Source: a virus (taxonomy: Duplodnaviria; Caudoviricetes). Taken from it: DNA of 64,000 nucleotides. Made by a program: the position numbers and the translations under genes. The notes under the pieces were generated by a model, which saw only the letters and a list, made by a program, of their open reading frames with translations, was not told where the DNA came from and did not search any database. Positions 1 through 37,509 of the stretch are shown piece after piece (the stretch's first letter is position 1; each line of letters opens with the position of its first letter). Location: positions 717-64,716 of the IMG/VR virus record IMGVR_UViG_3300045581_000594. The stretch is one strand, 5' to 3'.

Positions 1-284
1 CACTCATGGCTCCCTCCTTCCACGGCGGCGAGGGCTTTATCGGCTATTGATACCAACTCTACGCTGCCGCGACATGCACAACAAGAAGATCCTTCTGCAA
101 TCTTAAGCAAAGCCTCAGCCAGCCTGTCTCGTTGCTCGGTGACTGCGTTGAGTTCACGCTCTAGCTTTAAGCATAGCTCTGCCATGCGGTCGTAAGCATA
201 TTCGCTCATGTATCCGTCTATGCCGTCGAGGCAGTCGGATTTAATCATCGCATCTGTTCTCGGTGTGTCTGTTTCTGTATTCAT
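1..284 (-). CDS. DTPRTD-family small phage protein (stop codon truncated by window edge)
   Basis: Read by eye: MNTETDTPRTDAM...LERELNAVTEQRDRLAEAL...KALAAVKGGSHE; paralog of 661-1083 and 1076-1345. Confidence 0.8.
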   Translation of the reverse strand, partial: MNTETDTPRTDAMIKSDCLDGIDGYMSEYAYDRMAELCLKLERELNAVTEQRDRLAEALLKIAEGSSCCACRGSVELVSIADKALAAVEGGSHE

Positions 285-302
285 AATCTAATCGGTTAAA
301 TT

Positions 303-354
303 TTCGAACAGGTCGCATCAGTCGGCCTTTGGCGGCTGTGCTTGGCTGTTGGAG
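303..354 (+). mobile_element. attC-like recombination site 1
   Basis: R'' TTCGAAC (303-309), 5-nt spacer, L'' GCATCAGT (315-322), short stem-loop, L' GCTGTGC (335-341), 6-nt spacer, R' GTTGGAG (348-354); L''/L' pair with one extra base. Confidence 0.75.
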
Positions 355-668
355 CAAGGAAACGGACGCGAATCAAAACGCCATTTCCAAGGAAAAGTCA
401 GCGCGGCGAGGCTGTTTACTTTCCAGTAGCCAACAGGTCCATTCAGAATTATTCCGGGACATACCTCCCACAGTTCCGCTTCAATGCCGTTGTCGGTCTT
501 GCCGGGATATTTACTCGCCCACTCCCGATATACGGGGTCTTCATCCATCATGCGGGAGACCCACTTCTTGGCTATCGCCACATCATTAGGCGGTAAAAAA
601 GCTCCAACAATGCGATCCAGCGAATCGGCACCCGCTGGGCTCTCAGTGGTTTTCAGGTCATTACTCAT
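318..668 (-). CDS. Hypothetical protein, cargo of the attC cassette (antisense to attC orientation)
   Basis: 116-aa ORF coupled to the upstream stop (ATGAGTAA); begins in attC2 and ends in attC1. Confidence 0.75.
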   Translation of the reverse strand: MSNDLKTTESPAGADSLDRIVGAFLPPNDVAIAKKWVSRMMDEDPVYREWASKYPGKTDNGIEAELWEVCPGIILNGPVGYWKVNSLAALTFPWKWRFDSRPFPCSNSQAQPPKAD

Positions 669-733
669 TTGATAGGTTCCTTTCTTCGGCAGAGTTGGTT
701 GAGGGTGCCGATCCCTGATCGCTGACGTTCGTG
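602..733 (+). mobile_element. attC-like recombination site 2
   Basis: R'' CTCCAAC (602-608), spacer AATGC, L'' GATCCAGC (614-621), stem ATCGGCACCC/GGGTGCCGAT, L' CCTGATC (714-720), spacer GCTGAC, R' GTTCGTG (727-733); GCTCCAAC (601-608) is the exact complement of GTTGGAGC (348-355). Confidence 0.8.
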
Positions 734-1083
734 GTTAGGGATTGGATGGCTTCGCGGGCATCACTGTATTCTCCGCAACCGTCGCCAGTAATGAACGGCA
801 GACAGTTCCGCAGTGCCTTTGCCAGCCTGTCGCGCTGCTCGGTGACTTCCTTAATGGTATTCTCCAAGTGCTGATATTTTTCACACTGCCTTTCCATCCA
901 TTCTTCTTTAGACTCACCGTTGGCATACCAAGGCATCTCGGCACGGGCGGCGGTTAGTTCGCGTTCTATGGTGCGGCATAAGAAAGCATCTACTAATTGA
1001 CGATCATCACGCATGATTTCCATGCGCGTATCTTTCACGGTAAATACTCCTACGTCCGTCCTCGGTGTGTCTGATTCACTCAT
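661..1083 (-). CDS. DTPRTD-family small phage protein
   Basis: MSESDTPRTD...IERELT...VTEQRDRLA...IQSLTT; overlaps both neighbouring genes. Confidence 0.8.
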   Translation of the reverse strand: MSESDTPRTDVGVFTVKDTRMEIMRDDRQLVDAFLCRTIERELTAARAEMPWYANGESKEEWMERQCEKYQHLENTIKEVTEQRDRLAKALRNCLPFITGDGCGEYSDAREAIQSLTTNVSDQGSAPSTNSAEERNLSNE

Positions 1084-1345
1084 GGTCTTTAGTGGTTAGG
1101 GATTGAATTTCAGGATGTGCCGCGAGGAATCCATCAATAGTCATTTGCACTAAGACTCCACGTTTACACGCATCTGAAGTAACTGCCATCAATAAGCCAC
1201 GGACATCCTCAGCCAGCCTGTCGCGCTGCTCGGTGACGGCGTTTAGTTCTCGCTCAAGTTGTCGCCCTACATGGACTGACATTCCTGATCCTGCGTATGG
1301 CCATGCAGCCCATGCTTCATCTGTTCTCGGTGTGTCTGTTTTCAT
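1076..1345 (-). CDS. DTPRTD-family small phage protein
   Basis: MKTDTPRTD...LERELNAVTEQRDRLA...IQSLTTKDHE. Confidence 0.8.
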   Translation of the reverse strand: MKTDTPRTDEAWAAWPYAGSGMSVHVGRQLERELNAVTEQRDRLAEDVRGLLMAVTSDACKRGVLVQMTIDGFLAAHPEIQSLTTKDHE

Positions 1346-1533
1346 AAATCAATTATGTTGGTTATCATTACGGCGAAAGTGGACGATGCAAGCAGCGTCA
1401 TAGCCACATGAAAGCCAACCTCTGATCCGCGCTGGTCAAAATTAAATCCGCAACACCATGCGATAAACGCAGCGATGCAGCAGAAAAACACGAATAGAAA
1501 AATACCAAGCAGTATTCTGTATTTGAGGTTCAT
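1342..1533 (-). CDS. Small membrane protein (2 predicted TM helices)
   Basis: Two hydrophobic stretches; ATG at 1533 overlaps the upstream stop. Confidence 0.65.
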   Translation of the reverse strand: MNLKYRILLGIFLFVFFCCIAAFIAWCCGFNFDQRGSEVGFHVAMTLLASSTFAVMITNIIDL

Positions 1534-1715
1534 GGATCTCCTCCCTCCCATCGCAGCCCTACTTTCGAGAGGTAGCTGAGTAGTAAACTCTTGATCTTAT
1601 TGATGCGCTCGCGTTTTCGTAGTTCTCGTTCCCGCCGATTGGCGATAGCGTTCAGGAGTTGATAGGTCTCTATTTCGTCGCGTCCGAAGACAATCAATGG
1701 TTTGTTGATGCTCAT
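1530..1715 (-). CDS. Hypothetical protein
   Basis: 61-aa ORF in operon with A-rich leader. Confidence 0.55.
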   Translation of the reverse strand: MSINKPLIVFGRDEIETYQLLNAIANRRERELRKRERINKIKSLLLSYLSKVGLRWEGGDP

Positions 1716-1765
1716 ATTATTTTAGGTTACAAGGTTTGGTGTTTATTGGTTAGTTTGTTTTTCAA

Positions 1766-2842
1766 TTAGATCTTATCAGCTGCCTCTGGGGCGTTCACGA
1801 GGGTGGGCTTGATAAAGACGAGGCGTGTCTCTATCCTCCCCTTCCCGCAGCGGCGTCGAGCCATGTGCCCCCTTCTCCAGTGCATCTGCACAGATCCGCT
1901 GCCGCTCTCTCCGCTTTTTCTGTCGGAGCTAATGGAGCGGATACGCACTCCCAGCCAACGTGGTTGGAGAAACAGTAACTCACGTTTGCCATTCTTAGCC
2001 TTCCGGTGTTTTAATTTTTCAAGCCCGTCCACTAGCTCGATCTCGGCATTCATGGCGGTGAGTAGCTTTAACGCCCAGCCTACCGCTAAGGTTGCGGCGT
2101 TGATGCTTTCCTCGCGGCGGGCTTTGTCTTCATCTATGGTAAGACCATCAGCACTGTAAAGAGTGAAGGTATGGGTAGACGGGTCGGACACGACCCCCTC
2201 GGGAGTCACCAATAGCTTCGAGTAAAGACACGCCCCTTTGTTCGTGTAAGCAGTAACATAGAAGCGCGTTTTGTCGTCGCTTTGGTCTTTCGGAACAGTG
2301 AACCCGCAGGCTTCTATGTCCTTCAGACTCAAATGGGCACATCCGATCACAGTGATGTATTCATCTTCGCCTACCTGAATCGTGTCGTTCGGAATTACGA
2401 AGTAGCAGGACTTGAACGGGAGGCAAGCCTCGTTCTTGATGTTCGGGTCGGCCAAAGAATCGGTGCGCCCGAGCATCTCACACAGTCCCCTGCTCACTAC
2501 CCAGAAAGGGAACTCACAAGGCGCAGCGTAGCGGGAGACACACGTGGATGCTGTATGAGCTGTCAGGGCGTCAGCTAAGCGCACCCGATCTTCGTCAGTC
2601 ATAGCCAGATCAGCAATCTGAACCATCGCCTCGACAGACGCATATCCAATAGTGAACAAATCACGTAAGGCTGGCCATGAGATATACGAAGCAGGGATGC
2701 GGTAGTTGATGCCGGACAATCGTTTCAGAGGCGGAGTCGAGTCCACGATAACGTCGATGGTCGAAGCTACGACCTGTGTGAAAGCGGGATATGGCACTTT
2801 CGAGGCCGTGGCCATGAAGTCTAGGATGGGGTCTTTAGTCAT
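1766..2842 (-). CDS. Hypothetical protein with C-terminal HWRRGH motif
   Basis: 358-aa ORF; C-terminal MHWRRGHMARRRCG...LVFIKPTLV motif of a recurrent uncharacterised phage/plasmid family. Confidence 0.75.
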   Translation of the reverse strand: MTKDPILDFMATASKVPYPAFTQVVASTIDVIVDSTPPLKRLSGINYRIPASYISWPALRDLFTIGYASVEAMVQIADLAMTDEDRVRLADALTAHTASTCVSRYAAPCEFPFWVVSRGLCEMLGRTDSLADPNIKNEACLPFKSCYFVIPNDTIQVGEDEYITVIGCAHLSLKDIEACGFTVPKDQSDDKTRFYVTAYTNKGACLYSKLLVTPEGVVSDPSTHTFTLYSADGLTIDEDKARREESINAATLAVGWALKLLTAMNAEIELVDGLEKLKHRKAKNGKRELLFLQPRWLGVRIRSISSDRKSGESGSGSVQMHWRRGHMARRRCGKGRIETRLVFIKPTLVNAPEAADKI

Positions 2843-4175
2843 TGGTGATGCGGTGTAGGTTGTTGTATTTGGCGTGGTATTTGTCTAAGGCTTTCATCAC
2901 GGATTCCTCGACGGAACCTGCGGCAACGAGAACCCGTTGAAGGGCTGGAGACTTTGCTCCGGCACGATGGATGCGACCGAGCACTTGTCTGTAGGATTTG
3001 TAGTCGAAGGTCGGGGAGATCAGGCTGACCCTAGGGTGGCCCCCGTGAATGTCGTGGAGGGAGACTCCCACTCCACCCGCTGCGATGTTACAGATGATGA
3101 TCCGCGTGAGGTTGTTCTGGAACGATTGCACATGACGCTCACGTGAATCAGGATCTTGTCCTCCCACTACAACCGAGACATCGATCTTTCTCGTCTGGAA
3201 CACATCAAGCAGGGCGGCTACCGAATCTTTGAAATTCACGAAGATCGCAACGCTGTAGCCCTCTTCTCGGAGATCCATTGTCATCGTTTCGATCTCAGGG
3301 ATTTTCGCAATCTCCGCATACTGACGAGCGCGAAGGATCTCGGTGAGCGTGTGCGCTGAAGTAGGAGCTTCTCCCCCTGCTTCTTCGATCTGCTCACGCT
3401 CGATCATGGTTTCAACGATCTCAGGGGTGACGCCCAGCAATTCGTAATACTTCTGTATCTCTTTGGCAGAAGCGAAATCCAGCGGTTCGGTGATAATGTG
3501 GTTCTCGGTAAACGCATTAGGCAGGTCGGCAGCAGAAAGCCTACGGCAGTTCTTGCTGTAGAGTTGTTCTCCGAGCTGCTTGATCTTGTTTGGGATTCCA
3601 CCCTTCCAGTTGTTCCAAGGGTCACGGCGACAACCAAGCTCTTTCATCCAGCTGAACCAGCTGGGTTTGCCGTTGTGGGCTTTTTGAAGGCTATGCAGCC
3701 CAAGGGCATATCCGATAGCCCTCATCTCCGGAGGGGAGACGCATGCCGTTGCGCTGAGCATCAGGTTGTAACACCCGCCATCCACAGCGGCGATAAGCAT
3801 CGCCGAGTTCTGGGTGAAGGCTCCGGCACATTTGTGCACCTCGTCCCAGATCACCAGACAGTTTGAAGGTCCGGCCCATTTGAACGAACGTCTGCCGACT
3901 TTGGTGAACACGGAGTTTCCTCGGCGGAGTTTCTCGTAATTCGACACGACGACGACGTTCTTGACTCCGCGCTCGGCAAGCTCTCGCTTCCATTGCGGGA
4001 TGACGATCTTCATACAAACGACAACAACGGGCAGCCCTAGCTCAACGGCGACCGCAGCCGATATGACAGTCTTGCCTACGCCAGTTGCGGAGGTGTCGAG
4101 TGATGAGTTGTACCACAAAAGATTTTTCTTGTGGGCGTCGACGGAATCGCGCTGTGCTTGGAAGAGTTGTTTCAT
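2835..4175 (-). CDS. Superfamily 2 DNA helicase
   Basis: Walker A TGVGKT, DEVH, SAT and motif VI QVLGRIHRAG. Confidence 0.92.
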   Translation of the reverse strand: MKQLFQAQRDSVDAHKKNLLWYNSSLDTSATGVGKTVISAAVAVELGLPVVVVCMKIVIPQWKRELAERGVKNVVVVSNYEKLRRGNSVFTKVGRRSFKWAGPSNCLVIWDEVHKCAGAFTQNSAMLIAAVDGGCYNLMLSATACVSPPEMRAIGYALGLHSLQKAHNGKPSWFSWMKELGCRRDPWNNWKGGIPNKIKQLGEQLYSKNCRRLSAADLPNAFTENHIITEPLDFASAKEIQKYYELLGVTPEIVETMIEREQIEEAGGEAPTSAHTLTEILRARQYAEIAKIPEIETMTMDLREEGYSVAIFVNFKDSVAALLDVFQTRKIDVSVVVGGQDPDSRERHVQSFQNNLTRIIICNIAAGGVGVSLHDIHGGHPRVSLISPTFDYKSYRQVLGRIHRAGAKSPALQRVLVAAGSVEESVMKALDKYHAKYNNLHRITND

Positions 4176-4495
4176 GCGCTGATCGTTTCTTTTTGGTAGG
4201 TATTGAACCCGAACTCACTGATGGTGTTGAGTGCGCTTTTGGTAAGCTCGCCCTTGCGCCAACTTCTGGCGTTGTCCACGACCTCTTTGAGAGCCGCCAA
4301 TCTCTCCACCGCATCCTCAAGGGCAGCCTGTCTGCGATCTCTGGCTGTTCCTGCTACGGCTTCGGAGTATCTGGGACGCTTTGCCGAGGATACATATTGG
4401 ATGAATCGATAACCATTACGGCTAAGTCGAATGGAGAAGCCATCGAAAGAGTGCTTCTTTTCTGTCATTTCAGTGATATTTCTTGGGGTAGTCAT
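4172..4495 (-). CDS. Hypothetical basic protein, possibly AP2-like DNA-binding
   Basis: 107 aa; beta-beta-alpha-like pattern; overlaps the helicase start; fold call is weak. Confidence 0.55.
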   Translation of the reverse strand: MTTPRNITEMTEKKHSFDGFSIRLSRNGYRFIQYVSSAKRPRYSEAVAGTARDRRQAALEDAVERLAALKEVVDNARSWRKGELTKSALNTISEFGFNTYQKETISA

Positions 4496-4536
4496 GTTTG
4501 TTGGTTTGGTTGTTTGTAATGTGTCTGGGTTTGAAA

Positions 4537-4746
4537 TCAGTTCGCCAGATGCGGAGGATGCTCTGAGAGCGGATTGGGTATGGAGATACCAGTAAGTTGG
4601 AACACCATAACCTGCTGCTGGGTTTGGTCTGCTACCAACGCGGACGTTATCATAGCCTTGTCCAAGGTCATAAGGGGGGATGTGGTTTGCTGGTCTTTTG
4701 TCATTAAGATGAAAATACCATCGGGTGCTTTGTCAAAACTCGCCAT
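4537..4746 (-). CDS. Hypothetical protein
   Basis: 69-aa ORF downstream of a TTGACG-containing intergenic region. Confidence 0.55.
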   Translation of the reverse strand: MASFDKAPDGIFILMTKDQQTTSPLMTLDKAMITSALVADQTQQQVMVFQLTGISIPNPLSEHPPHLAN

Positions 4747-4885
4747 AGATTTAAGATGTTAGATTTGTTGATTCGGATTTGATTGAGAGACCTTGATACT
4801 GGGCTAACATCGATCCGTCAAATAATTTCTCCAATTATTTTTCACAAGCTAACACCACCCCCGTTCCGGATACAGGATACAGGGT

Positions 4886-5578
4886 TCAGTCGTCGGTAAC
4901 CTCGGCTTCGTATACAACCGAGTTCGCACCGCCCTTGGTGGCTTTGACGTTATTGAGAATGTTTACATCTATGGTAAGGGAGCTGCCCGCGCCACCCCCG
5001 CTGCCGTTATTGGACAAGCCCATAGAACGGCGAATGATCGCATCAAGCTCACCCAACTCCTTGACAGTTCGCGGGGGGCGGATGTTGCCCATGCTGTCCC
5101 GCAGGATACGGATACCCTGAGCAGCCACGTACGCCTGATACTGTTCTTGAGGCGAGCATTGCTTTTCCGCCATGTCCGTGATCTCTTTGTCCTCCAGTTG
5201 CTGGGCGATCTCTTTGGCAACCTCAACCGCCGCCTTCGCTTCGTTGGATAGTTTCGCCCTGAACGCATCGGGGTCTGGTTGGGTCTCTGGGATCTCAGGC
5301 TGTACCTCAACCTTGTGTTTCTTCTTCCAGTTGCTGATCGTCTGGGGGTCGACGTTGAGCTCTTTGGCGATGTCGGTAAGTTTGCGCCCCTCCTTAATCA
5401 TCCGCAATGCGTCTGCTAACTGCTTGGCTCTGGCTCGGCGTTTTGCTAGACGCTCCTCGTCCTTGGACATCGGCGGCCCATCGATGCCTAACTTGAGCAG
5501 CAGTTTCTTGCTTTTGGCTGACCGCTTCTCCTTGGCTACGATGTTCTTGTTGCGAAAGGTATTAGTTGACACGACCAT
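4886..5578 (-). CDS. HTH protein, probable terminase small subunit
   Basis: HTH RKLTDIAKELNVDPQTISNWKKK followed by a helical region; adjacent and divergent to TerL; true start may be GTG at 5572. Confidence 0.6.
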   Translation of the reverse strand: MVVSTNTFRNKNIVAKEKRSAKSKKLLLKLGIDGPPMSKDEERLAKRRARAKQLADALRMIKEGRKLTDIAKELNVDPQTISNWKKKHKVEVQPEIPETQPDPDAFRAKLSNEAKAAVEVAKEIAQQLEDKEITDMAEKQCSPQEQYQAYVAAQGIRILRDSMGNIRPPRTVKELGELDAIIRRSMGLSNNGSGGGAGSSLTIDVNILNNVKATKGGANSVVYEAEVTDD

Positions 5579-5636
5579 ATACTGGCATCTAATCTAAAAT
5601 CTTGTCAAATCATTTGATGTACTAGAATTACTTATC

Positions 5637-7445
5637 ATGGGACGCCGCAAAAAAGAAAATCCCGAGAAAACCACTCGATCCGTACTAGAGCCGTTCTTCG
5701 ACAAAGACGCACAGATGATGGACGTCGGCGGCTACTTAATCCCGCAATGCGCCACTCTAACCGCATGTCTGTGGGGTTTTGCCAACCACCCCACTGTCAA
5801 GGCCAAGGAGTTCTACTTCTGGAGGTGCGCCGATATTCTATGGAACAGAGACGATCTGCCCGAGCCGATGTTCATCAAGCACATGTGGGCGGAGAAGATC
5901 ATTCGGGAGTGTCTGGAGAACAAATACCTCGCCATCGGCGGGGCGGCTTCGTCCTCGAAGTCACACACGCTAGGCGGCTACGGGATCATTTCCTTCCTTG
6001 CCCAGCCCCGAGACGTGCTGGTTCTGATGACCTCAACCTCGCTGAGGGAAGCCCGTAAGCGGATCTGGGGATCGGTCATCAACCTGCTTTCGGTAATTGA
6101 CGGAGCTCCCGTGAACATTCGGGACTCGATCGGTAGTGCCAACTACGTGGATCAGAAGGGGGTCACCTACAACACGGCAGGATTGTCCCTGATCGCCGCT
6201 GAGAAGTCCCGAACACGGGAAGCCATCGGTCGGTTCATCGGTCTCAAGCAGAAGAAAGTGATCCTGATCGGTGACGAGCTGGGCGAACTGAGTCCGGCCA
6301 TCACGCAGGCCGCACTGTCCAACTTGTCGAAAAACCCGCAGTTCGAATACAAGGGTCTGAGCAACCCCGCATCCCGATTCGACGCCTTCGGCGACTGGGC
6401 TACCCCAGAGAACGGCTGGGAGTCCGTGACAATCGAGACCGACGATGAGTGGAAGACCAAATGGGGTGGGAAGTATATCCGCCTCGACGGGGAACGCAGC
6501 CCGAACATCCTCCTTGGTGAGGAGCGTTATCCGTTCCTCCCCACTCAGGCAAAGATCGACGAGGACAAAGCCCTGCTCGGTGAGAAGTCCAGAGCCTACT
6601 ACCGAATGGTTCGGGCGGTCTTCTTTGACAGTGACGAGGCTGAAGGGATCTACGGCGAGAATGAAATCGTCGCAGCTGGGGCAATGCAGCGGACGCAGTT
6701 TGTAGGCCCCATCACCCGTATCGTCGGGGTCGACCCCGCGTTTACCAACGGCGGCGACCGGACAGTGCTGTTCACAGCGGAGGTTGGGACGGATCAGAGC
6801 GGGCAATACGTTATTCAGTTTGGAGACTATCACTATTTGAATGATGACACCACCAACAAAGCCGTCCCCCGAACGTATCAGATTGTGCACGCCATCAAGG
6901 ACATGTGTGCCAAACTCGGGGTGAAGCCGGAGAACGTAGCGGTGGACGCCACGGGGGCAGGCTCTCCGTTTTGCGACGTTCTTGCGGGTGAGTGGAGTAA
7001 CGAGTTCCTGCGGGTCACCTTCGGCGGCTCCGCTTCCGACAAACGGGTCAGTATGAATAGCCAGCTTGTTGGTGACGAGCTGTATGTGAACAGGGTCAGC
7101 GAGCTGTGGATGACAGGCAAGGAGTTTCTCCGCACCCGTCAGATCCGTGGTATCTGTGCCGACTTGGCCAAGGAGATGTGCATGCGTCGCTACGACATGG
7201 TCAAGGGGACACGGCTGCGGGTGAAAATTGAGACGAAATCCGAGCTCAAGCAGCGGGTAGGGTTCTCCCCCGACTTGGCTGATGCCGCGTTCGTGGCACT
7301 GGAGCTTGCTCGCCAACGCCTCGGTATGATTGCCATCGACATGCCCAAGGAAGGGGAATCAGGGTTCGGGAAACAGGGTCCACTTATCACGATGAAGGAT
7401 CTCGACGTGGTGTCCCGCACTGACCACTCGACTCTTTACGACTAA
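5637..7445 (+). CDS. terL: Terminase large subunit
   Basis: Walker A-like GAASSSKS, Walker B ILIGDE, coupling motif LSNP, nuclease motifs VGVDPA and SPDLADA. Confidence 0.92.
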   Translation: MGRRKKENPEKTTRSVLEPFFDKDAQMMDVGGYLIPQCATLTACLWGFANHPTVKAKEFYFWRCADILWNRDDLPEPMFIKHMWAEKIIRECLENKYLAIGGAASSSKSHTLGGYGIISFLAQPRDVLVLMTSTSLREARKRIWGSVINLLSVIDGAPVNIRDSIGSANYVDQKGVTYNTAGLSLIAAEKSRTREAIGRFIGLKQKKVILIGDELGELSPAITQAALSNLSKNPQFEYKGLSNPASRFDAFGDWATPENGWESVTIETDDEWKTKWGGKYIRLDGERSPNILLGEERYPFLPTQAKIDEDKALLGEKSRAYYRMVRAVFFDSDEAEGIYGENEIVAAGAMQRTQFVGPITRIVGVDPAFTNGGDRTVLFTAEVGTDQSGQYVIQFGDYHYLNDDTTNKAVPRTYQIVHAIKDMCAKLGVKPENVAVDATGAGSPFCDVLAGEWSNEFLRVTFGGSASDKRVSMNSQLVGDELYVNRVSELWMTGKEFLRTRQIRGICADLAKEMCMRRYDMVKGTRLRVKIETKSELKQRVGFSPDLADAAFVALELARQRLGMIAIDMPKEGESGFGKQGPLITMKDLDVVSRTDHSTLYD

Positions 7446-7966: not shown

Positions 7967-8413
7967 ATGAACTACCCCATGCCGCCTGTTGACTTTGACG
8001 AACTCGAAAAAGATGCTCTCGGCAGTGTGAAGGAGGAACTGGCCGAATCCACTGTAGCTGAGATTCTCAAGCAAGGCATATCCCTAGGTATGCTGCTCGG
8101 TAAGAGCTACAAAAAGAAAGAGGAAGCCGACGACGAAGAGGAGGACGAGGACGAGGAAGAGGAAGAGGAAGGTAAGGAAGACGACGAGATGCCTGAGGGG
8201 TGTGGTCACCCGTCCCCCAAACACGATCTCGTCGCCATGTTGCTCGGACGCAGGGGGCAGGGTATGTTCCCGATGAAACCGAAGTCCTACCAAGACCCAA
8301 CGGGCGAACCTCAAATGGTTCCTGTCGATGAGAAAAAAAGGAGCAAGTCATCCCCTATGATGGTGATCGCTATCTCACCGAAGAAAAGAAAACAAGGCGG
8401 GTTCTTCGGCTAA
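7967..8413 (+). CDS. Hypothetical protein with poly-Glu/Asp tract
   Basis: EEADDEEEDEDEEEEEEGKEDDE; TTGACT-17-TAAAGC promoter 5 nt upstream of ATG 7967. Confidence 0.7.
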   Translation: MNYPMPPVDFDELEKDALGSVKEELAESTVAEILKQGISLGMLLGKSYKKKEEADDEEEDEDEEEEEEGKEDDEMPEGCGHPSPKHDLVAMLLGRRGQGMFPMKPKSYQDPTGEPQMVPVDEKKRSKSSPMMVIAISPKKRKQGGFFG

Positions 8414-8823
8414 ACCCAATCGATCTCATCTGGGTCGTATACACACGTAAGCTCCTCCCCGATCCGGATATCCCTTGCGGCGTAGTAAACGTCACTGCCC
8501 CTGTCGTGGGTCAGGTTGGGTTTCAAGGAATGGTTCACGAAGTAGGCAGCCCCGACCTCATTGAGATGACAGTCAAGATGAAAACCTTCTGCATCATGAT
8601 TGCAGATTTGCTTGACGTAACCTGTAACCGAATCCGGTAGCCCCGCAAGTTCACTCCACCTGACGAAGTGGTTATGCCTCGGGGCAAACACGACCTGCCC
8701 GCTGCGGATCTCCGTGAGGGTCACGACACCGACTCCGGCTCCAGCGATCGAGCTAGGCACTAGCTTCACCGACGGGCCTCGGAGAATCCTGTTTATCAGA
8801 TCGGTCCTATCGAGCGGGGTCAT
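8410..8823 (-). CDS. SET-domain protein (putative lysine methyltransferase)
   Basis: SSIAGAGVGV, FVNHSLKPN and AARDIRIGEELTCVY are the SET motifs. Confidence 0.9.
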   Translation of the reverse strand: MTPLDRTDLINRILRGPSVKLVPSSIAGAGVGVVTLTEIRSGQVVFAPRHNHFVRWSELAGLPDSVTGYVKQICNHDAEGFHLDCHLNEVGAAYFVNHSLKPNLTHDRGSDVYYAARDIRIGEELTCVYDPDEIDWV

Positions 8824-12949: not shown

Positions 12950-15900
12950 ATGCTGGAAATCAAACCATTTAGCGTCTGGTCGCAAGACCACTCCGACACC
13001 CCACCTACTGAGCAATATCGTGGATACTCCACCTACTTACGCTCGTCCCACTTCAAGAACGGAACGCTAAATGAGCAGACCGAGAATGAAATTAACGAGG
13101 GCATGTATCAGAAAGCTGTTGCTGACGGCTTGATTGCTGAGGACGCACCTGATGAGGAGAAGGAAACTGTCTTCAGATCTTTGACTGGGGCTGAGCCAAC
13201 TGATCCCAGTTTTACGAACGCTCAGTTCTTACCTGATTACTTGAGAAGTAAGTTTGATCGCAACTCCGCCGAGTATGCCCAAGCCGGATTGGTCGAGACC
13301 TACTTGTCAGCTAAACGGGTAAATTCTCCACTTGCCGAGCAGCACAAGGCGTCGATTGAGCCGCTGCTGGCGAATCAGGAAATGATTACCGCCGCTCGGA
13401 AAGCTGCTGTTGATCGTGGGGATATGCAGGTTGTGTCCTACACCAAGCCTGATGGGTCGAAAGGTTTTCATTTCGGGGCAGACACCACTCGTGAGTCTCT
13501 TTCGGGTAAGGTGGATTCCTTGCTGGCGTTGGGGGCACTCGATGCGACAGATCTGAAAGAGGTCAATAGCTATCTTGATCCGCTGAACGGAGGGGTCGCC
13601 AACAATGCCCAAGCTGTTCGGGCTGATGCCGCTTTCAGATTCTTGGACGAGACAATCAAGTCCGACCCTGCCCTCAAGAATAATTTCAACAACGCCGTTC
13701 AGAAAAGGCGTCGCCGTGAGCAGGTGGCAGGCATGACCACAGGGGAGCGTATTTTCGACGTTGCCAAACAGGCAATCGCCATCCCGTTTGAGGCTGCTGC
13801 GAATCTTGTCGTCGGGACAGGACAGGCTGTAGGTGAGGCTTTTGGAGCCGAGTATGCACCCGAAGAGGCCCCAGCCTCTGCCGATCTCACGAAGGCCAAA
13901 GATGCCCTTCGTTCCAATGGTTACTCGGATGCGGAGATCGAGCGATATGTGACCGATTATACCAAGCATATGACGGGCCCTGTCTTTCGTGCGGACAACC
14001 CTGCTTCGGGTATCGACACTGATAGTCTTGGAAACGTGCTGCTCGCCCCTGAGCTAATCAATCAGGCGGTGTTTGACAAGGCTCTGGAAAGTGCCCCACT
14101 GAACGAAGCACAGAAGGCTCAGGCTCCCGAACAGCGTAAGCTGATGCTGGAGAGAATGACCCCCGAATACATGGATTTGATTGTGGGCGAGTCTACGGAG
14201 GCGTTGGATGCCTACACTAAGGCTAAGGCCAGCGGGATCTCTGATTCGGCATTTGTGGAGTCATGGTTGAATGACCCCAATAACTACAGCGGTTTCTCCG
14301 AGCGACTCCAGCAATTCGGTTTGTCTACTGTTTCCGCAGTTGCCCAACCCCTGCTTGGTGTATTTGCTCTGGGTGGGTCTGAAAGTGCTGCCAAAGGTTT
14401 GGCTGCGCTCAATCGTGAGGCTGGTCAGCGTCAGAAGTATTCTCGCCTTTTCGGTGATGAGTACGGTCTCGGGTTCCAAGTTGCAAACACCCTCCCTCAA
14501 GTTGGTGCGGACATCCTTCTGTCTGTCGGAACGGGTGCTGCTTATACGGCGGCCAAGACAACAGCTTCCACAGGCATTAAGAGTGTCCTCCGCAGTGCAG
14601 CTAAACAGGCTGTGGCTGATGTCGGAGAAGATGCCGCGTTGGCGGTATCTCGTGCGTCTACCTTGACGGGTAGCACTTCGGAAGCGTTCAGTAAAATGTC
14701 CCAAGGGTTGACCAAGACTTTGGGGCTTACGGAGGCATATGCCCCGATTGCGGCGTCATCGTTCATGCGGTCCGCCTCTTCTACTTACGGCCAGTTGTAT
14801 GACGAACTGCCCGAAGGCATGTCCCATGAGGAGAAACATAAGGCGGTCTTGGGGACTTCTATGCTATCTGGTATGTCTACTATGCTGACAGTCGTTGGCA
14901 TGGGCTTGATCGGCCGAGGTGGTGTGGAGGATCTCGCTACTGGCGGCGTACGTATCGGAGGCAAGACTGTGCCGATGGACAAGCTGACCTATCGCCAGAT
15001 GAAAATGCTGGCTGATGAGACGACCCCCGTTATCAATAGGCTTACCGACAAGGCGTTCCAGCAGGCTCTTCGTGGGTCAATGGGTAACGCTTACCGAAAC
15101 TTCTTCAACCAAACACTCAAGGGTGGTTTTGACGAGTCGGTCGAGGAGATGCTCGATCAGGCTATCCAGATGAAAATCACGGATGCCTACAAGAATCAGG
15201 ACACCCCATTCCACGAGTTTGCCAATCAGCTGTGGGTTGCGGGAGTTGTCGGTGGTGCTCTCGGTGGAGGCATGGGGGCAGGGGCTCAGCTCTTGTCTCG
15301 CCCTACAGAGAATGACGCTATCCGTGCGGCAAGCGCACGTTACGATCTATTGAGCCGCGCCACAGAGCGGTTGAAGGCTTCTGGCTCTCCCGTCACCGCA
15401 TCCTTGCTTGAGGAGCGTATGAACGAGGCGGCTCAACGTCTCGCTGAGGAGCGCACAGCCAAGGCTACCAGTGACGCTCAGGCTTTGCAGAACGCTGCCG
15501 CCACACCTGCATCCTCTACTCTGAATCCTGATTTCGGTGTAGCGACGGAAGATCCGGATATCCCACGCCCTGCCTATACCGAACTGCTCACGGATCTTGA
15601 GGGGGAGCAGGTCATGCACGGCCACTACAAAGGACGCGTCGTGCTTGAGGAGGATCAGGCTTATCTCGAATTGGACAAACCTGAATTGGACGCTAACAAA
15701 CAACAGTTCACCCGCATTCATTTAGGTAACGCAGTCGATGTCGCTTCCAAGCATGTGTCCCGTTCTTCAAAGTTCAGGGTGACCGATGCTCCTGTCGGCA
15801 GTATACCAGCAGGCACTCCGTTCTACCAATATGGTAAAGGCGTAAAGGGCAGATATGCCCTACCTGACCCTGCAGCAACTAACTTGGATGCGGATTTCAC

Positions 15901-18900
15901 GTTCCATCGAGATGAGAATGGTGAGATCAAGTCTGTTGTTATCAACACCGCTCGTAACTTTGACAGACCGGATGTCGTGTTCCCTCGCACGATCACTGCT
16001 CCTGCGGAACTACGTGTGCTCGGACGCATTTACGGGTTCGAAGTAAGCCCCAATACGGGAGCTGCTTCCAGACCTACGGCCGGAACTGCTGACTTCAGGT
16101 CTGTCAGGGCGGTAGCTAAGCCTGCTCAGTTGGAGTTCTCATACGACCCAGTTGCCGCCAAGCAAGGCAAGAAAGCTGCGCCTTCGTGGTCTATCGGGCA
16201 GAATAAAGACGATCAACCGATCATCTCAATCCCCCGTGCTAAACAGGGGGATAAAGTCATTCTATTACCACCAACAGGAGAACAAAGACCCGGTGCTGTT
16301 CAGGTTGTCTACAAAGAAGATAATACAGTAGACTACCTTTTCTTTCCGAACACCTTGACTGCAGGGCAAAACCAACCCACTGCTTATTTCGAGACCGACC
16401 CTGAGCGTATCCAACAACTTGCTTCCTTGTATAACCTCCGGCTTTCCGAGACCGATGGCCCGTCAGAAGCATTGATCGATGATGGCCACGCCCGTTTCGC
16501 TTTCCTCGACACTATGGCAGGAGCCCAGCTACCTCCACTTCCTGTAGTTAACCCAGAGGCGGGAGCCGCCCCAGAGGAAGCCGCTCCAGCTGTCATTCCA
16601 GTCGGCGAGGGTCAGATGGAATTGGGGCTTGATGGCGACGTTCCTGATTATGCCGATCGGGTTTCTAAAGCGGGCATGGCGAAAGCTGTTGTCGCCGCTG
16701 CTCGTCGTGTTGAAGAGCTCAAAGCGAAAATGCCTGCATCTGCGAAGGCCGATGCGGCGGCACTTACTGCCGCTGAAAATGGGGTAACCCGTGCTCGTGC
16801 TTCTTTGCTAACTGCACAAACTCAGTTGGAGAAGGCTACGGATAAAACCCGTGATGCGCGTGAGGCTACTGTGGCTACTCGTTTGAAACAACTTACGGAC
16901 GCAGAGCAGAAACTTGCTGCAGCACAGCAGGCTCCTAGCTTAGTGATGACTCGTGCGATCAAAGAAGCTGAACGCCGTCTGAAAGATCTTCAAGATGCGT
17001 CAGCCAGAACAGAGGCTGGAGAAGTAATTCATTTATTAGGCGAACGTCTCACTCCTGAGCAGAAAATCGAATACAGCTCGGCGGTCGCTGCGGCGTATCC
17101 TGTTGAAGAAAGTTCGGAAGCGATAATTAATACTATCCTGAGACTCGACCCGACCTCCAGAACCCGCACGGCTCGTCGCATTGCTCAGCAGACTTACGCC
17201 GACTTCACCCCAGAGCAGATCGGGGGTGCATTGGCACGAGCAGAAGCCATGATTGATTTCGGTGTAGCCCGTGCGGAGGACGGCAGTGTCCCTATCGAGG
17301 TTGCCCGTGAGATCGTATCCGCAGGTGAAACTATCAAATCTCGTATCGCTGCTTTTCAAGGGATTGCCGTTGATGAAGAGGCTCGCCGTATAGCCAAGCT
17401 GGTAGAAGATGCTGGGCAGGCGTTGCTTGCTCAGTACAACGCTGATGTAGAGAAGGCTAACCCAACACCTTCGGCTCCCGCCGATACTACACCAGAAGAG
17501 ACCTCTCCAGAAGAAGGGGTAGCGATCACTGTCGATTCCTTCCCAGAGGTTCTCGCTCGTTTCAACTCGCTGATTCAAGAGTATAAAGAAGCTGTGCTTT
17601 ACGCTGAGGGGGCTGCTATTGCTGAAGGTAAGTCGCCGAACGCTAGGGGTCGTGCTGTTACCAAGGTTAGAATACCTATTCAGCAGGAGCTCAGAGCTGA
17701 GGCTAATCGTATTATTAACCTAATCAGACAGAACGACGACCTTGAAGAGAGTATCCGTGCTGAATTCGAGACCGAAGTGTTACGCACACTAGGCCGTAAC
17801 TTCGATAAGGCGTTGAGTAATCTGCTTCAAACCAAGCGGGAACTTGTCACTATGCGTGGGGAGAAAGCAGTAAAAGGCGTGGTCCGTGAGACAGGAAAAG
17901 GCTTCCGTACGAAACAGGAGAAAGCCGTGTTTGAAATGCTGGCTGCGAATGGTCACGTTGTATCCGACCTTACCTCCACGGGGGCTATGTTCCCCGACCA
18001 TCGCGCTGTAATCAACGACGTTGTCTACAACGCCTTCACGATGTCCACCCCCGATCTTCAGGAGGCAGGAGATAAATACTACAAACCATCTGAGTACATC
18101 AAGACGAAGAACCGCATGCTCGCCGAGCGTGTGCAGGAGCTTTACCCTGAAGTGGGTTACTTGAGTCCGGCGGGAGCTGGTGGCTACTACTATGTAGTAG
18201 GCAAAAACAAATTCCCCACTGTGTATGCAACGGGAGTCAAGGGGTCGATGCGCGTCTTGAAAAAAGATGGAGACCCAAAGAATGCGGCAGACTTCACGTA
18301 CGTCAAAGGTGCATATGCTCCATATGTGTCTTCAAATCGTTACACGGATTCGACTGAGGTATCTGGGATCTTTACTAATAACCCAGTAGCTGTTCGTGCC
18401 CAGTTGGCGATGAGGATGTCTATCGCCCCTGCTCCCACATCGTTTGCTAAAGGCAAACTGAATCCATCTATTGTTCTAAACGGAAGACAAGCTGTTGGTT
18501 ATTACATGCCGTGGGATTCTGAAAGGACTAACCCGTTTTATGGAGACTCCAAACCCGTCGATCCTCGTTTCACTCATAACTCGGAGACTTCCGACGAACC
18601 CCAAGCCCGTGTTCGTAAATCACGGCGTGCCGCCGAGGCTTTGTTCCTACTAGGAATGAAGGAGCCGTCTCGCAGGTCTGTGTGGTCTACTCAGTTTAGT
18701 GAAGAAACGAATAAGCTGTATAAAAGGACTTCTGGAAAACTTGATCTCAACGCAGGCTCTAAAGGCTCGGTGGATACAAGACTCCCACTCACCGCTACCG
18801 GAATGGATAATACGGTTATCGGGGTGCTCAAGGAGTATACTGTTCAATTCAACGAGTTCAGACTTGCCCAACTGCTGACGCAGTACGTGGCTAAGCAGTT

Positions 18901-33073: not shown

Positions 33074-33146
33074 ATTTTTGTTTGTTTAGTTGTAAGATAG
33101 GCTCGCTCTGACGCTGTGCCTCCCAGCGTTAATCACTTCGGGGTGA

Positions 33147-34691
33147 TTAGGCATCCGCTTCTGTGTTACCGCAGATCAGTACGATCTCGTTGTCCTCGGT
33201 GCGGGTCAGTGAGTGGTGGAACACCCGTCCGTCGGCGAGTGTGACACTGTCATCAACAAGCACCATCTGCTCGTCCGCAGTCATGATCGCATTGTCCATG
33301 TGGCAGGACTCCCTTGTGTAATGCAGAGGGGAGAGATAGACGAGGTGGTCGTCGTGGATACGACCATCCCTAGTTGAGAGGGTCGTGTCGCCAAACCTGA
33401 CGTACCCTTCATAGTAGGGGACGTAGACTGCTTGGCTCTCCTCTATCTCCTCACCGAAGATATCCTCTACCATCGACTCAGGCTCCTCAACATCAAGCGA
33501 GCCGTCGGTGTTGTCAAGCTCGGAGAGTTTGTGGCAAGGCCTGTCATCCCTGTTGGAGAGCATGCCATCGTCATACCAGTGACGGAGGGAGTCAATGTAT
33601 GGGACATTGTCGTAGACGCATAGGGTGCTCGGTGTCGGGATAGACAGCAAGCGATAGGACAGATCGTTGGCAAAACCATCGGTGTGATACACACACTTGA
33701 CGATGTTCTCGTCACGGAGGAACTGCCTGACGGCATCGATCGCCTTCTGTGGGTGGCAGGAGTTGATACGCACACAGTAGACCCGATCAAGGTGATACTG
33801 CCCGTTGTCGTGCCATACCAGAGCACGCCCGCAGTGTGCACCATTGACCTTGATGAGCATCATGGACAAACGACCAGCACGTTGGAGGTCGTCATACAGG
33901 GCGAAGTAGGTGTAATCCTTGCCTGACATGCAGCTGCCCAGATCTATCTCCTCGTCTGCTTCCCAGTCGGAATAGACTTCACTGATGCAAGTCCCGTCAG
34001 GTATCCACTCCGCAGTGTATTGCTTGACCGCAAGGATAGAGTCAATCTGAGACAGCCAGAGGTTGGTGGCTGCCGTGTCAAGCGGTGGTAGTTCGTAACG
34101 CTTGAGCCACTTGTTGATTGTGGCAACCGGACGCCCCGCACAGGCTACAGGAATGTGATGGGAGTATGACGGGTATTGGAGGGTAGCCTCGACAGGTCGG
34201 AATCCCCGCATGGTCTTCGAGTCGAAGACAGAAGGAGGCAGATCAGGCAGCATGGTAGTGAGCTGCTTGAGTCCTTCTTCGGAGGAGATCAGGCTGTCCA
34301 GATCCACGCCCTGCTTGACACTACCAGCCCTGTCACCCGTTGGCTCGATGGGTGGCATCAAACGCAAGGTCATATCCCCACCTCGTGGATGAGCGAGCCG
34401 GATGGAGGTGATCGGCGTGATGGGCTGCCATCCGTCATTGTGACTCTCGGCGTCGATGGTTGTGCGGACAGTGAACGGGGCGAGCAGGGTGTCCTTGTTC
34501 TTGAAGACAAAGGGCTGCTTCCTCGCCAGTGCGTAGACATGGCAGTAAGTGCCCAGCTCCGGTTTGGTCGAGCGGATATGCCTAGCTAGGTGGTTAGTGA
34601 GCATGTCCCATGTCACCTCGGAGGCTTGGGTGATGGCTTCTTCATCTTCGGCGTTGCGTTTGGCGTTTTCGTATTCTTCAATGATGTTCAT
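33147..34691 (-). CDS. Phage protein with SCM...GRALVW...DRVY...PYIDS domain
   Basis: 514-aa ORF with a recurrent phage motif set of unknown function; stop lies in a palindrome. Confidence 0.8.
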   Translation of the reverse strand: MNIIEEYENAKRNAEDEEAITQASEVTWDMLTNHLARHIRSTKPELGTYCHVYALARKQPFVFKNKDTLLAPFTVRTTIDAESHNDGWQPITPITSIRLAHPRGGDMTLRLMPPIEPTGDRAGSVKQGVDLDSLISSEEGLKQLTTMLPDLPPSVFDSKTMRGFRPVEATLQYPSYSHHIPVACAGRPVATINKWLKRYELPPLDTAATNLWLSQIDSILAVKQYTAEWIPDGTCISEVYSDWEADEEIDLGSCMSGKDYTYFALYDDLQRAGRLSMMLIKVNGAHCGRALVWHDNGQYHLDRVYCVRINSCHPQKAIDAVRQFLRDENIVKCVYHTDGFANDLSYRLLSIPTPSTLCVYDNVPYIDSLRHWYDDGMLSNRDDRPCHKLSELDNTDGSLDVEEPESMVEDIFGEEIEESQAVYVPYYEGYVRFGDTTLSTRDGRIHDDHLVYLSPLHYTRESCHMDNAIMTADEQMVLVDDSVTLADGRVFHHSLTRTEDNEIVLICGNTEADA

Positions 34692-35091: not shown

Positions 35092-35110
35092 ATAGGTTAC
35101 AGGGTTCAGG

Positions 35111-35980: not shown

Positions 35981-35984
35981 GGGT

Positions 35985-37488: not shown

Positions 37489-37509
37489 GCCTTAATCACT
37501 TCGAGGTGA

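What the first reader, a model, noticed from the sequence alone, without database searches (positions are those of the whole stretch)
303..733. Integron-type gene cassette (two attC sites) inside a phage operon, with the gene antisense and no integrase
Seen: two sites have attC geometry (R''-5 nt-L'' 8 nt with an extra base ... L' 7 nt-6 nt-GTT) at 303-354 and 602-733. The sequence after the first crossover (GTTGGAGC, 348-355) is the exact complement of the R'' of the second site (GCTCCAAC, 601-608). Known: this complementarity is the hallmark of a cassette that was once a circle, and IntI recombines folded attC strands at G/TT; attC sites have been reported in phages. Inference: 349-727 is a mobile cassette, and the phage borrows a host integron integrase (no intI in the window) to gain or lose genes. 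Unlike most bacterial cassettes, the ORF runs opposite to the attC direction, matching the phage's minus-strand transcription.
Basis: partly seen in the sequence, partly recalled or inferred. Interest (0 to 1): 0.9.

Follow-up and report, generated by a model that had tools for sequence, protein, structure and literature searches.

The report
Integron-type gene cassette in lake phage
A small accessory gene of this freshwater phage sits between two folded DNA sites built like the recombination sites of bacterial integrons, and related phages carry different genes, or whole rows of them, at the same kind of site although none encodes the enzyme that would move them.

Summary
Sites at 303-354 and 602-733 have attC geometry, and GTTGGAGC (348-355) complements GCTCCAAC (601-608).

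Taken alone the window is weak. Such geometry occurs at chance frequency (37 sites against 30 +/- 7 in shuffles). A covariance model I built from 41 bacterial attC sites scores the two sites at only 15.6 and 8.6 bits.

Relatives decide it:
- The short left site recurs in about 20 other freshwater phage or metagenome contigs, and conservation always stops at GTT.
- In 11 of 17 testable copies a different cargo follows, closed by its own site of the same geometry but different, compensating sequence. The control gave 1 of 268.
- Arrays of up to nine chained sites exist.
- The bacterial-attC model picks these sites on the expected strand in 25 of 26 hits.

Genes run antisense to the sites. The site arms are translated, and the loops carry the stop codon, ribosome site and start codon. 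No recombinase was found in four complete or near-complete phage genomes, so use of a host integron integrase is inferred, not shown.

Integrase-less attC clusters in phages are already published (Qi 2023). This scan has also noted integron-like phage arrays on other DNA. I class this as a new variant of a known kind.

The parts
295..350 (+). Conserved block of the short site. It is shared at 84-93% identity with copies in other phage contigs, and the similarity ends exactly at GTT 348-350.
   Evidence: blastn (L037 twice, L038); 24 distinct copies of its 20-mer; contig pieces 280-351, 270-350 and 302-342 in other runs.
303..354 (+). Short (52 nt) attC-type site, the head or docking site of the array. 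R'' 303-309, L'' 315-322 (extra T318), inner stem 323-324 and 326-327 with 331-334 (extra G325), L' 335-341, R' 348-354. Predicted crossover between G348 and T349.
   Evidence: Sequence. Real-attC model R1: 8.6 bits on the + strand. Phage-site model R2: 51.3 bits, but this site was in its training set. The + strand folds at z -2.94.
349..727 (+). The predicted mobile cassette: the cargo gene core on the antisense strand plus its own long site.
   Evidence: R' after site 1 complements the R'' of site 2. The same layout occurs in 11 of 17 other copies, against 1 of 268 with foreign 4-mers.
318..668 (-). Cargo ORF, 116 aa. The conserved core is residues 29-103 (about nt 360-584). The N-terminal 22 codons are encoded by the left arm of site 2. 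The last 10 codons and the stop (318-320) are encoded by site 1.
   Evidence: ORF list. 15 relatives of 62-189 aa (two longer) that match only the core. AlphaFold model: blocks 31-90 have pLDDT 91-97 and the ends 50-77. No Pfam, PHROG or fold match.
602..733 (+). Long (132 nt) attC-type site belonging to the cassette. R'' 602-608, L'' 614-621 (extra C617), second stem 624-633 with 703-712, L' 714-720, R' 727-733. Predicted crossover between G727 and T728.
   Evidence: Sequence and the 10-bp perfect repeat I7. R1 scores 15.6 bits, the top hit of the whole window, E 0.21. A 93%-alike copy limited to 604-729 lies in another metagenome with unlike flanks (X7 record 25).
634..702 (-). Loop of site 2. 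It carries the gene junction: stop of the upstream paralog (661-663), a ribosome-binding-like AAAGGAA, and the start of the cargo (666-668). Start and stop overlap as ATGAGTAA.
   Evidence: Sequence and ORFs. The same arrangement is found in 28 of 40 long sites on the antisense strand, against 5 of 40 on the site strand.
661..1083 (-). Upstream gene pB, one of three mosaic paralogs (with 3-284 and 1076-1345). Its family homology ends at codon AAC 729-727. Its last 22 codons are encoded by the right arm and loop of site 2.
   Evidence: ORFs, repeats D1-D5, blastn blocks that begin at 726 in many loci.
3..284 (-). Downstream gene pA (94 aa paralog). Its leader lies just beyond the short site.

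Best explanation
Window 349-727 is an integron-type gene cassette, inserted at a resident short attC-type site (303-354) of a virulent-looking freshwater phage.

The cassette consists of a small cargo gene on the antisense strand and its own long attC-type site (602-733). Each site folds as a single strand into the attC shape:
- an R box (AAC/GTT);
- 5-nt and 6-nt unpaired spacers;
- a 7-bp L box with an extra base at position 4;
- a second extra base three positions further on;
- a variable loop.

Recombination at G|TT (348|349 and 727|728) would excise the unit as a circle. It would leave the upstream paralog fused in frame to the short site's tail (..TTN-SQAQPPKAD*).

The phage family keeps one to eight such cassettes behind each short site. 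Genes face against the sites. The site arms are translated as linker peptides, and the loops carry stop, ribosome site and start, so any order of cassettes stays expressible within the phage operon.

No recombinase is encoded by the phage. The most likely enzyme is therefore an integron integrase (IntI) of the host, acting during infection.

Shown: the site anatomy, its recurrence, covariation, chained R boxes, different cargos at the same site, likeness to bacterial attC, and the absence of a phage recombinase.

Inferred: that recombination still occurs, its crossover point, and the identity and source of the enzyme.
For: 1. Anatomy at the stated coordinates.

2. The short site's 20-mer recurs in 24 distinct copies from viral and metagenome contigs; 3 were judged chance matches. 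Conservation stops at GTT in all, followed by unrelated sequence.

3. Of 17 copies with at least 300 nt downstream, 11 have an R'' complementary to GTT+4 followed by the full geometry. All 11 L''/L' pairs differ in sequence. With foreign 4-mers the count is 1 of 268. A twelfth copy (L061) fits with one G.T pair.

4. The same rule, applied to 12 regions beside bona fide integron integrases (TIGR02249 above cut-off), finds 98 sites on the expected strand and 16 on the other.

5. Model R1 was built only from 41 of those bacterial sites.
- It recovers 99 expected-strand hits in the bacterial regions, 58 of them not used in training.
- In 53 kb of phage loci it gives 26 hits at E <= 10, 25 of them on the strand of the short site. 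The best is 37.2 bits, E 1.7e-6.
- In window 1-3000 its two best hits are the two sites, both on +.

6. Covariation on the 26 aligned phage sites:
- 98% of cells are paired, against 70.5% in shuffles (0 of 500 shuffles reach it).
- 10 of 11 stem pairs show changes on both sides.
- Sliding the partners drops pairing to 30-46%.

7. Model R2 finds 95 sites in 363 kb of related loci, arranged as a short site followed by 1-8 long sites. Consecutive sites show at least 4 nt of R'/R'' complementarity in 37 of 49 pairs.

8. Cargo ORFs read in frame through AAC into the short site's tail in 15 of 17 copies. Homologues of one cargo share the core up to ..N and then carry different tails.

9. No tyrosine recombinase in G000, G006, G263 or G266, which are 95-100% complete. 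No serine recombinase or Y1 transposase in G000.

10. Phage-borne attC sites without an integrase are recombined by IntI1 in vivo (Qi 2023, PMC9892861; abstract and section 3.4 read).
Against: - Over the whole window the real-attC model scores the two sites weakly. 602-740 gets 15.6 bits (E 0.21, rank 1) and 303-354 gets 8.6 bits (E 8.7, rank 6). Bacterial sites not used in training score about 19-55 bits. With default filters neither window site was reported.
- The model aligned the right half of site 2 in another register (L' at 719-725, GTT at 735-737).
- The fourth base of most phage R' boxes is C (GTTC..), not the purine of the recalled GTTRRRY consensus.
- The predicted crossovers lie inside reading frames. 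The cargo's stop codon lies outside its cassette.
- Genes are antisense to the sites, which is not the usual integron arrangement.
- No empty site, no close relative differing only by this cassette, and no joint 348-to-728 was seen.
- Five of 17 copies lack an intact partner site.
- The host is unknown, so the presence of IntI in it is untested.
- Rfam gave no hit. I did not check whether Rfam holds an attC family.
- R2 finds no further site in this phage. The cassette here could be a fixed relic.
Confidence: 0.6

Rival explanations
1. The cassettes and sites are real recombination units, but another recombinase moves them. Candidates are an unrecognised phage protein or a host Xer-type or other tyrosine recombinase. 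On this reading the sites resemble attC by convergence or distant common descent.
For: - The R box is mostly GAAC/GTTC rather than the usual TAAC/GTTA of the bacterial sites sampled.
- Scores under the bacterial model are low.
- Genes are inverted relative to the sites.
- Arrays begin with an attC-shaped short site rather than an attI next to intI.
- Earlier unchecked notes of this scan describe phage arrays run by small Xer-type recombinases.
- Many window ORFs have no family assignment.
Against: - No tyrosine recombinase of any kind in four complete or near-complete genomes of the family.
- No serine recombinase or Y1 enzyme in G000.
- The fine geometry matches the bacterial sites column by column: 5-nt and 6-nt spacers, the spacer consensus AAGGC, an extra base at L'' position 4, a second extra A three positions after L'', and C before GTT.
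Confidence: 0.25
2. The cassette was once mobile but is now a fixed relic in this phage. The two hairpins persist because they serve expression, as translational coupling or mRNA structure around the gene junctions. No recombination occurs today.
For: - There are only two sites and one cassette in this 64.7-kb genome.
- L'' and L' of site 2 pair in 6 of 7 positions.
- Some copies elsewhere are decayed (L056, L064, L065).
- The arms are coding and the loop holds stop, ribosome site and start.
- No polymorphism was seen.
Against: - The short site is 84-100% conserved across many diverged phages while its flanks are not.
- R'/R'' complementarity is intact over 8-9 nt in the window. It would decay without recombination, because it has no coding or folding role in the linear form.
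- Different cargos sit at the same site.
Confidence: 0.1
3. Chance resemblance. The two hairpins and the 9-nt inverted repeat are unrelated features of coding sequence, and there is no recombination system.
For: - Geometry sites occur at chance frequency in the window.
- Fourteen inverted pairs occur in 1.5 kb.
- Bacterial-model scores are weak.
Against: - The recurrence of the whole layout elsewhere: 11 of 17 against 1 of 268.
- 37 of 49 chained R boxes.
- Covariation with 0 of 500 shuffles reaching the observed values.
- Strand consistency in 25 of 26 hits.
Confidence: 0.03

Closest known systems
Integron attC sites and gene cassettes. The definition is recalled: R''-L''...L'-R' boxes, extrahelical bases, an unpaired central spacer, a variable terminal structure, and crossover at G|TT by the IntI tyrosine recombinase.
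   Same: - AAC/GTT R boxes.
- 5-nt and 6-nt spacers.
- A 7-bp L box with an extra base at L'' position 4.
- A second extra base three positions on.
- Loops of very different length (sites of 52-137 nt).
- The R' of one site is complementary to the R'' of the next.
- One small gene per unit.
- A model trained on bacterial sites finds them on the right strand.

   Different: - No intI, no attI and no Pc promoter.
- Genes face against the sites.
- Site arms are translated, and the loop carries the gene junction.
- The cargo's stop codon lies in the neighbouring site.
- The R box is mostly GAAC/GTTC.
- Cassettes are very small (gaps of 130-900 nt).
CALINs (clusters of attC sites lacking an integron integrase), including the 17 reported in temperate, virulent and uncharacterised phages (Qi et al. 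2023, PMC9892861; abstract and section 3.4 read).
   Same: Two or more attC-type sites in one orientation in a phage genome with no integrase. That paper shows that five of six tested phage sites are recombined by bacterial IntI1.
   Different: - This phage lineage has no relative among cultured phages (no DNA or TerL match).
- The arrays have a conserved short head site that supplies a common C-terminal tail.
- Genes are uniformly antisense. The paper describes the arrays of phages TJE1 and PH101 as having the orientation typical of bacteria.
- The paper's supplementary tables could not be opened, so I cannot exclude that a related contig is listed there.
Sedentary chromosomal integrons with homogeneous attC sites, such as the Vibrio repeats (recalled).
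   Same: Many cassettes of unknown function share near-identical sites within a lineage. Here the short site is 84-100% alike across contigs.
   Different: Only the head site is homogeneous. The cassette sites all differ. Array sizes are 1-8 cassettes, not hundreds, and there is no integrase.
Integron-like cassette arrays with small Xer-type recombinases in other phages. These are unchecked notes of this scan (e1-6146848, e1-5729963, e1-5738564, e1-6239760, e1-3423632).
   Same: Phage arrays of one-gene cassettes bounded by hairpin sites. One note also reports genes facing the other way, with each cassette starting with its site.
   Different: Those arrays sit beside their own recombinase. Here none is found in four complete or near-complete genomes, and the sites match bacterial attC in detail. 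I did not test those notes.
PeSL promoter-stem-loop cassettes of T4-type phages
   Same: Short conserved intergenic modules flank variable small early genes in phage genomes and are thought to mediate gene shuffling.
   Different: PeSLs are promoter plus terminator-like hairpins that recombine by homology. Here the boundaries are sharp at G|TT, each cassette has its own covarying site, and the R boxes are chained, which homologous exchange does not produce.

Membership tests
attC site (integron cassette recombination site) | R'' ending in AAC and R' beginning with GTT, in inverted orientation at the two ends | tested here: met
   303-309 with 348-354, and 602-608 with 727-733. AAC and GTT are invariant in 25 of 25 aligned phage sites that have letters there.
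attC site (integron cassette recombination site) | L''/L' box with an extrahelical base on the L'' side and asymmetric spacers (5 nt and 6 nt) | tested here: met
   Window sites; 12 partner sites. The same rule finds 98 sites on the expected strand and 16 on the other in 12 regions beside real integron integrases.
attC site (integron cassette recombination site) | Structure conserved while sequence varies (covariation) | tested here: met
   98% of cells paired against 70.5% in shuffles (0 of 500 reach it). 10 of 11 stem pairs show changes on both sides. The alignment was fitted to the model, which favours pairing. The 11 L''/L' pairs found by the independent rule also all differ.
attC site (integron cassette recombination site) | R' of the preceding site complementary to the R'' of the cassette's own site (trace of a circular form) | tested here: met
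   Window: 8-9 nt. Family: at least 4 nt beyond GTT/AAC in 37 of 49 consecutive pairs. Bacterial arrays show the same.
attC site (integron cassette recombination site) | Significant score under an attC covariance model | tested here: inconclusive
   IntegronFinder's model was not available. My model R1, built from 41 bacterial sites, gives the window's sites 15.6 bits (E 0.21) and 8.6 bits (E 8.7) over the window. Other members of the same phage family reach 37.2, 24.2, 23.3 and 22.5 bits (E 1.7e-6 to 0.004).
attC site (integron cassette recombination site) | Recombined by an IntI integrase at G|TT | not testable with these tools
   This needs an excision or suicide-conjugation assay. The only indirect support is that conservation ends exactly at GTT in all copies.
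Complete integron | intI gene with adjacent attI and a Pc promoter | tested here: not met
   TIGR02249 and PF00589 find nothing in the complete 64,716-nt genome, nor in G006, G263 and G266.
CALIN (attC cluster lacking an integrase) | At least two attC sites close together, in the same orientation, with no integron integrase nearby | tested here: met
   Two sites 248 nt apart on the + strand and no integrase. The verdict depends on accepting the sites as attC (see the rows above).
Classical cassette organisation | ORF on the same strand as the attC top strand, with its 3' end next to its own attC | tested here: not met
   The cargo is on the - strand and the sites on the + strand. In the family, the opposite strand carries the longer open frame in 26 gaps, the site strand in 4, with 10 ties, of 40.
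IS200/IS605-type hairpin elements | Y1 (HUH) transposase, or TnpB, with subterminal hairpins | tested here: not met
   PF01797 finds nothing in the genome. Chained AAC/GTT boxes are not a feature of that family (recalled).

The most novel reading that the evidence does not exclude
A lineage of virulent freshwater phages maintains its own pool of attC-type cassettes that are built into its reading frames.
- Site arms are translated as disordered linkers.
- Loops carry the stop, ribosome site and start.
- A conserved short head site gives whichever gene lies next to it a common tail (SQAQPPKVG).

The phages encode no recombinase. They would exploit the host's integron integrase during infection to shuffle early genes between co-infecting phages. 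Because the genes are antisense to the sites, the recombinogenic bottom strand is the non-template strand of the operon. Transcription itself could then expose the sites.
Probability: 0.3. Interest if true: 0.8.

Novelty: new variant of a known kind. Interest (0 to 1): 0.66.

Why it matters
Integrons are regarded as bacterial devices. Integrase-less attC clusters in phages were reported only recently and for few genomes.

Here a whole uncultured lineage of lake phages shows attC-type arrays with three unusual properties:
- the genes are inverted relative to the sites;
- the sites are embedded in coding sequence;
- a constant head site supplies a shared peptide tail.

If a host integrase drives them, phage accessory-gene turnover, probably of early or host-takeover genes, would depend on a host enzyme. 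Phages and bacterial integrons would then share a recombination currency.

The system can be tested directly with existing IntI assays. It also gives a simple sequence handle, the short site, for collecting cargo genes of unknown function.

Tried and rejected
- Rfam on window 1-2000 at E <= 10: no hit. I did not check whether Rfam holds an attC family.
- Nucleotide search of window 1-6000 and protein search of TerL against cultured phages: no match. No named relative or host could therefore be drawn from them.
- No tRNA genes.
- Word-based homologue search of the cargo: only the window's own protein. The viral scan for it found no relative. The exhaustive HMMER search gave 15 relatives, all from short metagenome contigs.
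- The search for related loci with alignments A1 or A2 failed or found nothing.
- Five related phage records hold no homologue of the cargo.
- Relatives found through the 358-aa protein and the helicase are only 30-58% identical. No near-identical genome with or without the cassette was available, and the flanks of other short-site copies are alike only in blocks.
- Read laying on contigs of X3, X4, X6 and X7: no joint 348 to 728. These are contigs of other samples, so absence means nothing.
- Single-strand folding energies do not choose a strand. Site 1: + z -2.94, - z -0.32. Site 2: -0.74 and -0.92.
- Cargo function: no Pfam, PHROG, Atlas, PDB or BFVD match.
- The tyrosine recombinase of record G009 is a generic phage/Xer type (TIGR02249 22.5 bits against a cut-off of 265). 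I rejected it as the system's enzyme because the other genomes lack it.
- Homologues of the L070 cargo come from metagenomes only, so no link to a bacterial integron was obtained.
- The count of stop codons inside long sites is a loose test (36 of 40, against 28 of 40 on the control strand). Only the combined stop-plus-start measure separates the strands (28 against 5).
- A search of papers for 'inverted cassettes' together with integron, attC and orientation found none.
- I did not look up PeSL elements. That comparison is recalled.
Full report
**What is there.** The window is bases 717-64716 of a complete 64,716-nt virus record with direct terminal repeats. Its left end is a minus-strand operon: small terminase-like gene, helicase, a 358-aa protein, small genes, then three mosaic paralogs. 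The paralogs are pC 1076-1345, pB 661-1083 and pA 3-284. They share nucleotide blocks encoding TDTPRTD, TEQRDRLA and IQSLTT. Between pB and pA lies a 116-aa ORF (318-668, minus).

Site 2 also has a perfect 10-bp inner stem (624-633 with 703-712). Its loop holds the stop of pB, a ribosome-binding-like sequence and the start of the ORF.

**The window alone.** Sites of this geometry are not enriched. There are 37 on both strands, against 30.0 +/- 6.9 in 100 shuffles. A same-strand pair with five further complementary bases occurred in 0 of 100 shuffles, with about 0.01 expected. That is a post-hoc test.

Rfam gave nothing. The predicted crossovers (348|349 and 727|728) lie inside reading frames, and the ORF's stop (318-320) lies outside the predicted cassette. 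At this point I regarded the finding as doubtful.

**What relatives show.** Contigs of four other lake or lagoon metagenomes held short pieces matching just 280-351 and 604-729, with unlike flanks. The block 295-350 recurs twice in L037 and once in L038. Scans with its invariant 20-mer returned 8 viral, 17 metagenome and 2 genome stretches, giving 24 distinct copies. Three of these lack the rest of the element and are chance matches.

In every real copy the similarity ends at GTT and a different sequence follows. I examined the 17 copies with at least 300 nt downstream:
- In 11 copies the four bases after GTT are complementary to the four bases before an AAC 146-882 nt further on.
- That AAC is followed by a 5-nt spacer, an 8-nt L'' with an extra base at position 4, a 7-nt L', a 5-6-nt spacer and GTT.
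- With 4-mers taken from other copies the same test succeeds in 1 of 268 cases.
- The 11 L''/L' pairs all differ in sequence while pairing in 6 or 7 of 7 positions.
- A twelfth copy (L061) fits with one G.T pair.
- The other five are decayed (L056, L064, L065), lack a partner (L062), or are joined directly to a paralog N-terminal block at an AAC (L060).

**Calibration against real integrons.** I located integron integrases (TIGR02249 above its cut-off) in 96 of 251 sampled genomes of one class. I fetched 12 regions on the cassette side. The same rule found 98 sites on the expected strand and 16 on the other, with the same chained R'/R'' complementarity. One region had none.

From 41 of these sites I built covariance model R1.
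- In the bacterial regions R1 recovers 102 hits at E <= 1. Of these, 99 are on the expected strand and 58 were not in the training set.
- In phage loci with default filters it reports 7 hits. The best is the cassette site of L070 at 37.2 bits.
- With filters off on 53 kb of phage loci it reports 26 hits at E <= 10. Of these, 25 are on the strand of the short site. They comprise the short sites, their partner sites and further sites.
- In window 1-3000 its two best hits are 602-740 (15.6 bits) and 303-354 (8.6 bits), both on the + strand.
- Over the whole window these hits rank 1 and 6, with E 0.21 and 8.7. The window's own sites would therefore not pass a genome-scale attC search with this model.
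- R1 also chose a different register for the right half of site 2.

On the 26 aligned phage sites, 98% of cells pair, against 70.5% in shuffles. Ten of 11 stem pairs show changes on both sides. The alignment was fitted to the model, which favours pairing. The aligned consensus shares several features with the bacterial sites: the spacer AAGGC, the extra base at L'' position 4, a second extra A three positions after L'', and a C before GTT.

**Arrays.** Model R2, built from the phage sites, finds only the two known sites in this window. In 363 kb of related loci it finds 95 sites. I used 86 of those rows, dropping three duplicate loci and one opposite-strand hit. The sites form arrays that start with a 52-54-nt short site followed by one to eight long sites of 85-137 nt. 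The complementarity between the R' of one site and the R'' of the next is at least 4 nt in 37 of 49 consecutive pairs. L047 has nine chained sites in 2.5 kb. This is the layout of an integron array.

**Peculiarities.**
- *Gene orientation.* Genes are antisense to the sites. Of 40 cassette gaps, the opposite strand carries the longer open frame in 26, the site strand in 4, and 10 are ties.
- *Gene junction in the loop.* On the antisense strand 28 of 40 long sites contain both the stop of the upstream ORF and an ATG that opens the next ORF. On the site strand the figure is 5 of 40.
- *Shared tail.* Cargo ORFs next to a short site read in frame through the AAC codon into a shared tail N-SQAQPP(K/Q)(V/A)(G/D)* in 15 of 17 copies.
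- *In-frame excision.* In the window AAC is an in-frame codon of both pB (729-727) and the cargo (350-348). Excision would therefore fuse pB in frame to that tail. I derived this from the sequence.
- *Variable tails.* Homologues of the L070 cargo share the core up to ..GEIL..N and then have different tails.
- *Disordered ends.* In the AlphaFold model of the window's cargo, the residue blocks from 31 to 90 have mean pLDDT 91-97. The site-encoded ends score 50-77. Its function is unknown.

**The enzyme.**
- No tyrosine recombinase is found in G000, G006 (four short sites), G263 (14 sites) or G266. All four are 95-100% complete.
- One partial record has a generic phage-type integrase.
- G000 has no serine recombinase or Y1 transposase.
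- Pfam scans of 28 of its ORFs show a family A DNA polymerase, a primase-helicase-like protein and a PD-(D/E)XK nuclease, but no recombinase.
- The short site's 20-mer is absent from the representative bacterial genomes apart from two chance hits. These phages are therefore not seen as prophages.

The sites match bacterial attC in the features that, as I recall, IntI reads (extrahelical bases, spacers, R box). I therefore consider a host integron integrase the most likely enzyme, at about 0.6. An unknown recombinase is the main rival.

**Comparison with the literature.**
- Qi et al. 2023 (PMC9892861; abstract and section 3.4 read) report 17 integrase-less attC clusters in phages, including virulent ones. 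They show that IntI1 recombines five of six tested sites. The kind is therefore known.
- A passage of Richard et al. 2024 (PMC13108822) states that bottom-strand recombination sets cassette orientation for expression from Pc. The phage arrangement is the reverse.
- A preprint seen only as a search listing (10.1101/2022.09.11.507474) says that the integrase can insert cassettes outside att sites. This could explain the L060 junction.
- My two literature searches found no description of this lineage, of translated attC arms or of a shared head-site tail.
- Earlier unchecked notes of this scan describe integron-like phage arrays with Xer-type recombinases on other DNA.

**Verdict.** The cassette reading is well supported by comparative evidence. 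The borrowed host integrase is a reasonable inference that was not tested.

Noticed in passing
window 1-1345, and L001 1-1000: An array of at least four mosaic paralogs (pA, pB, pC and one before the window). They share near-identical nucleotide blocks (TDTPRTD, TEQRDRLA, IQSLTT) around variable cores. The same blocks recur in about 25 other viral contigs, often several per contig.
   Followed up: partly
L060, around its short site (1954-2005, minus): The short site's GTT is joined directly to the N-terminal block (TDTPR) of a paralog at an AAC inside that block. It looks like recombination at a secondary GTT site.
   Followed up: no
L057 67-118 and L067 1296-1347, compared with L056 7560-7611: The same cargo follows the short site, but L057 and L067 carry an extra GTT at the junction and have AAC changed to CAC in R''.
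   Followed up: no
window 12950-26410 (+): A single open reading frame of 4,486 codons, about a fifth of the genome. It was not examined.
   Followed up: no
window 63435-63881 (-): A protein with the N-terminal domain of dATP/dGTP diphosphohydrolases (PF18909, E 1e-31). As I recall, such enzymes accompany modified-base DNA in some phages.
   Followed up: no
window 8410-8823 (-): A SET-domain protein (PF00856, E 2.6e-9) in a phage genome.
   Followed up: no
window 604-729: A 393-nt contig of run X7 holds a 93%-alike copy of just this site. Its eight base substitutions all lie between 636 and 676 and its two one-base indels at 654 and 656, so every difference is inside the loop and both stems are unchanged. 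The flanks are unlike on both sides.
   Followed up: partly
window 33129-39173: An earlier first-reader note lists nine 8-6-8 palindromes that partition early genes and supply stop codons. I did not check it. It may be a second kind of gene-boundary site in the same phage.
   Followed up: no
L047 9290-11773: The largest array seen: one short site and eight long sites in 2.5 kb. Every consecutive pair shows 4-7 nt of R'/R'' complementarity. The record is 73 kb and 100% complete, with no tyrosine recombinase.
   Followed up: partly
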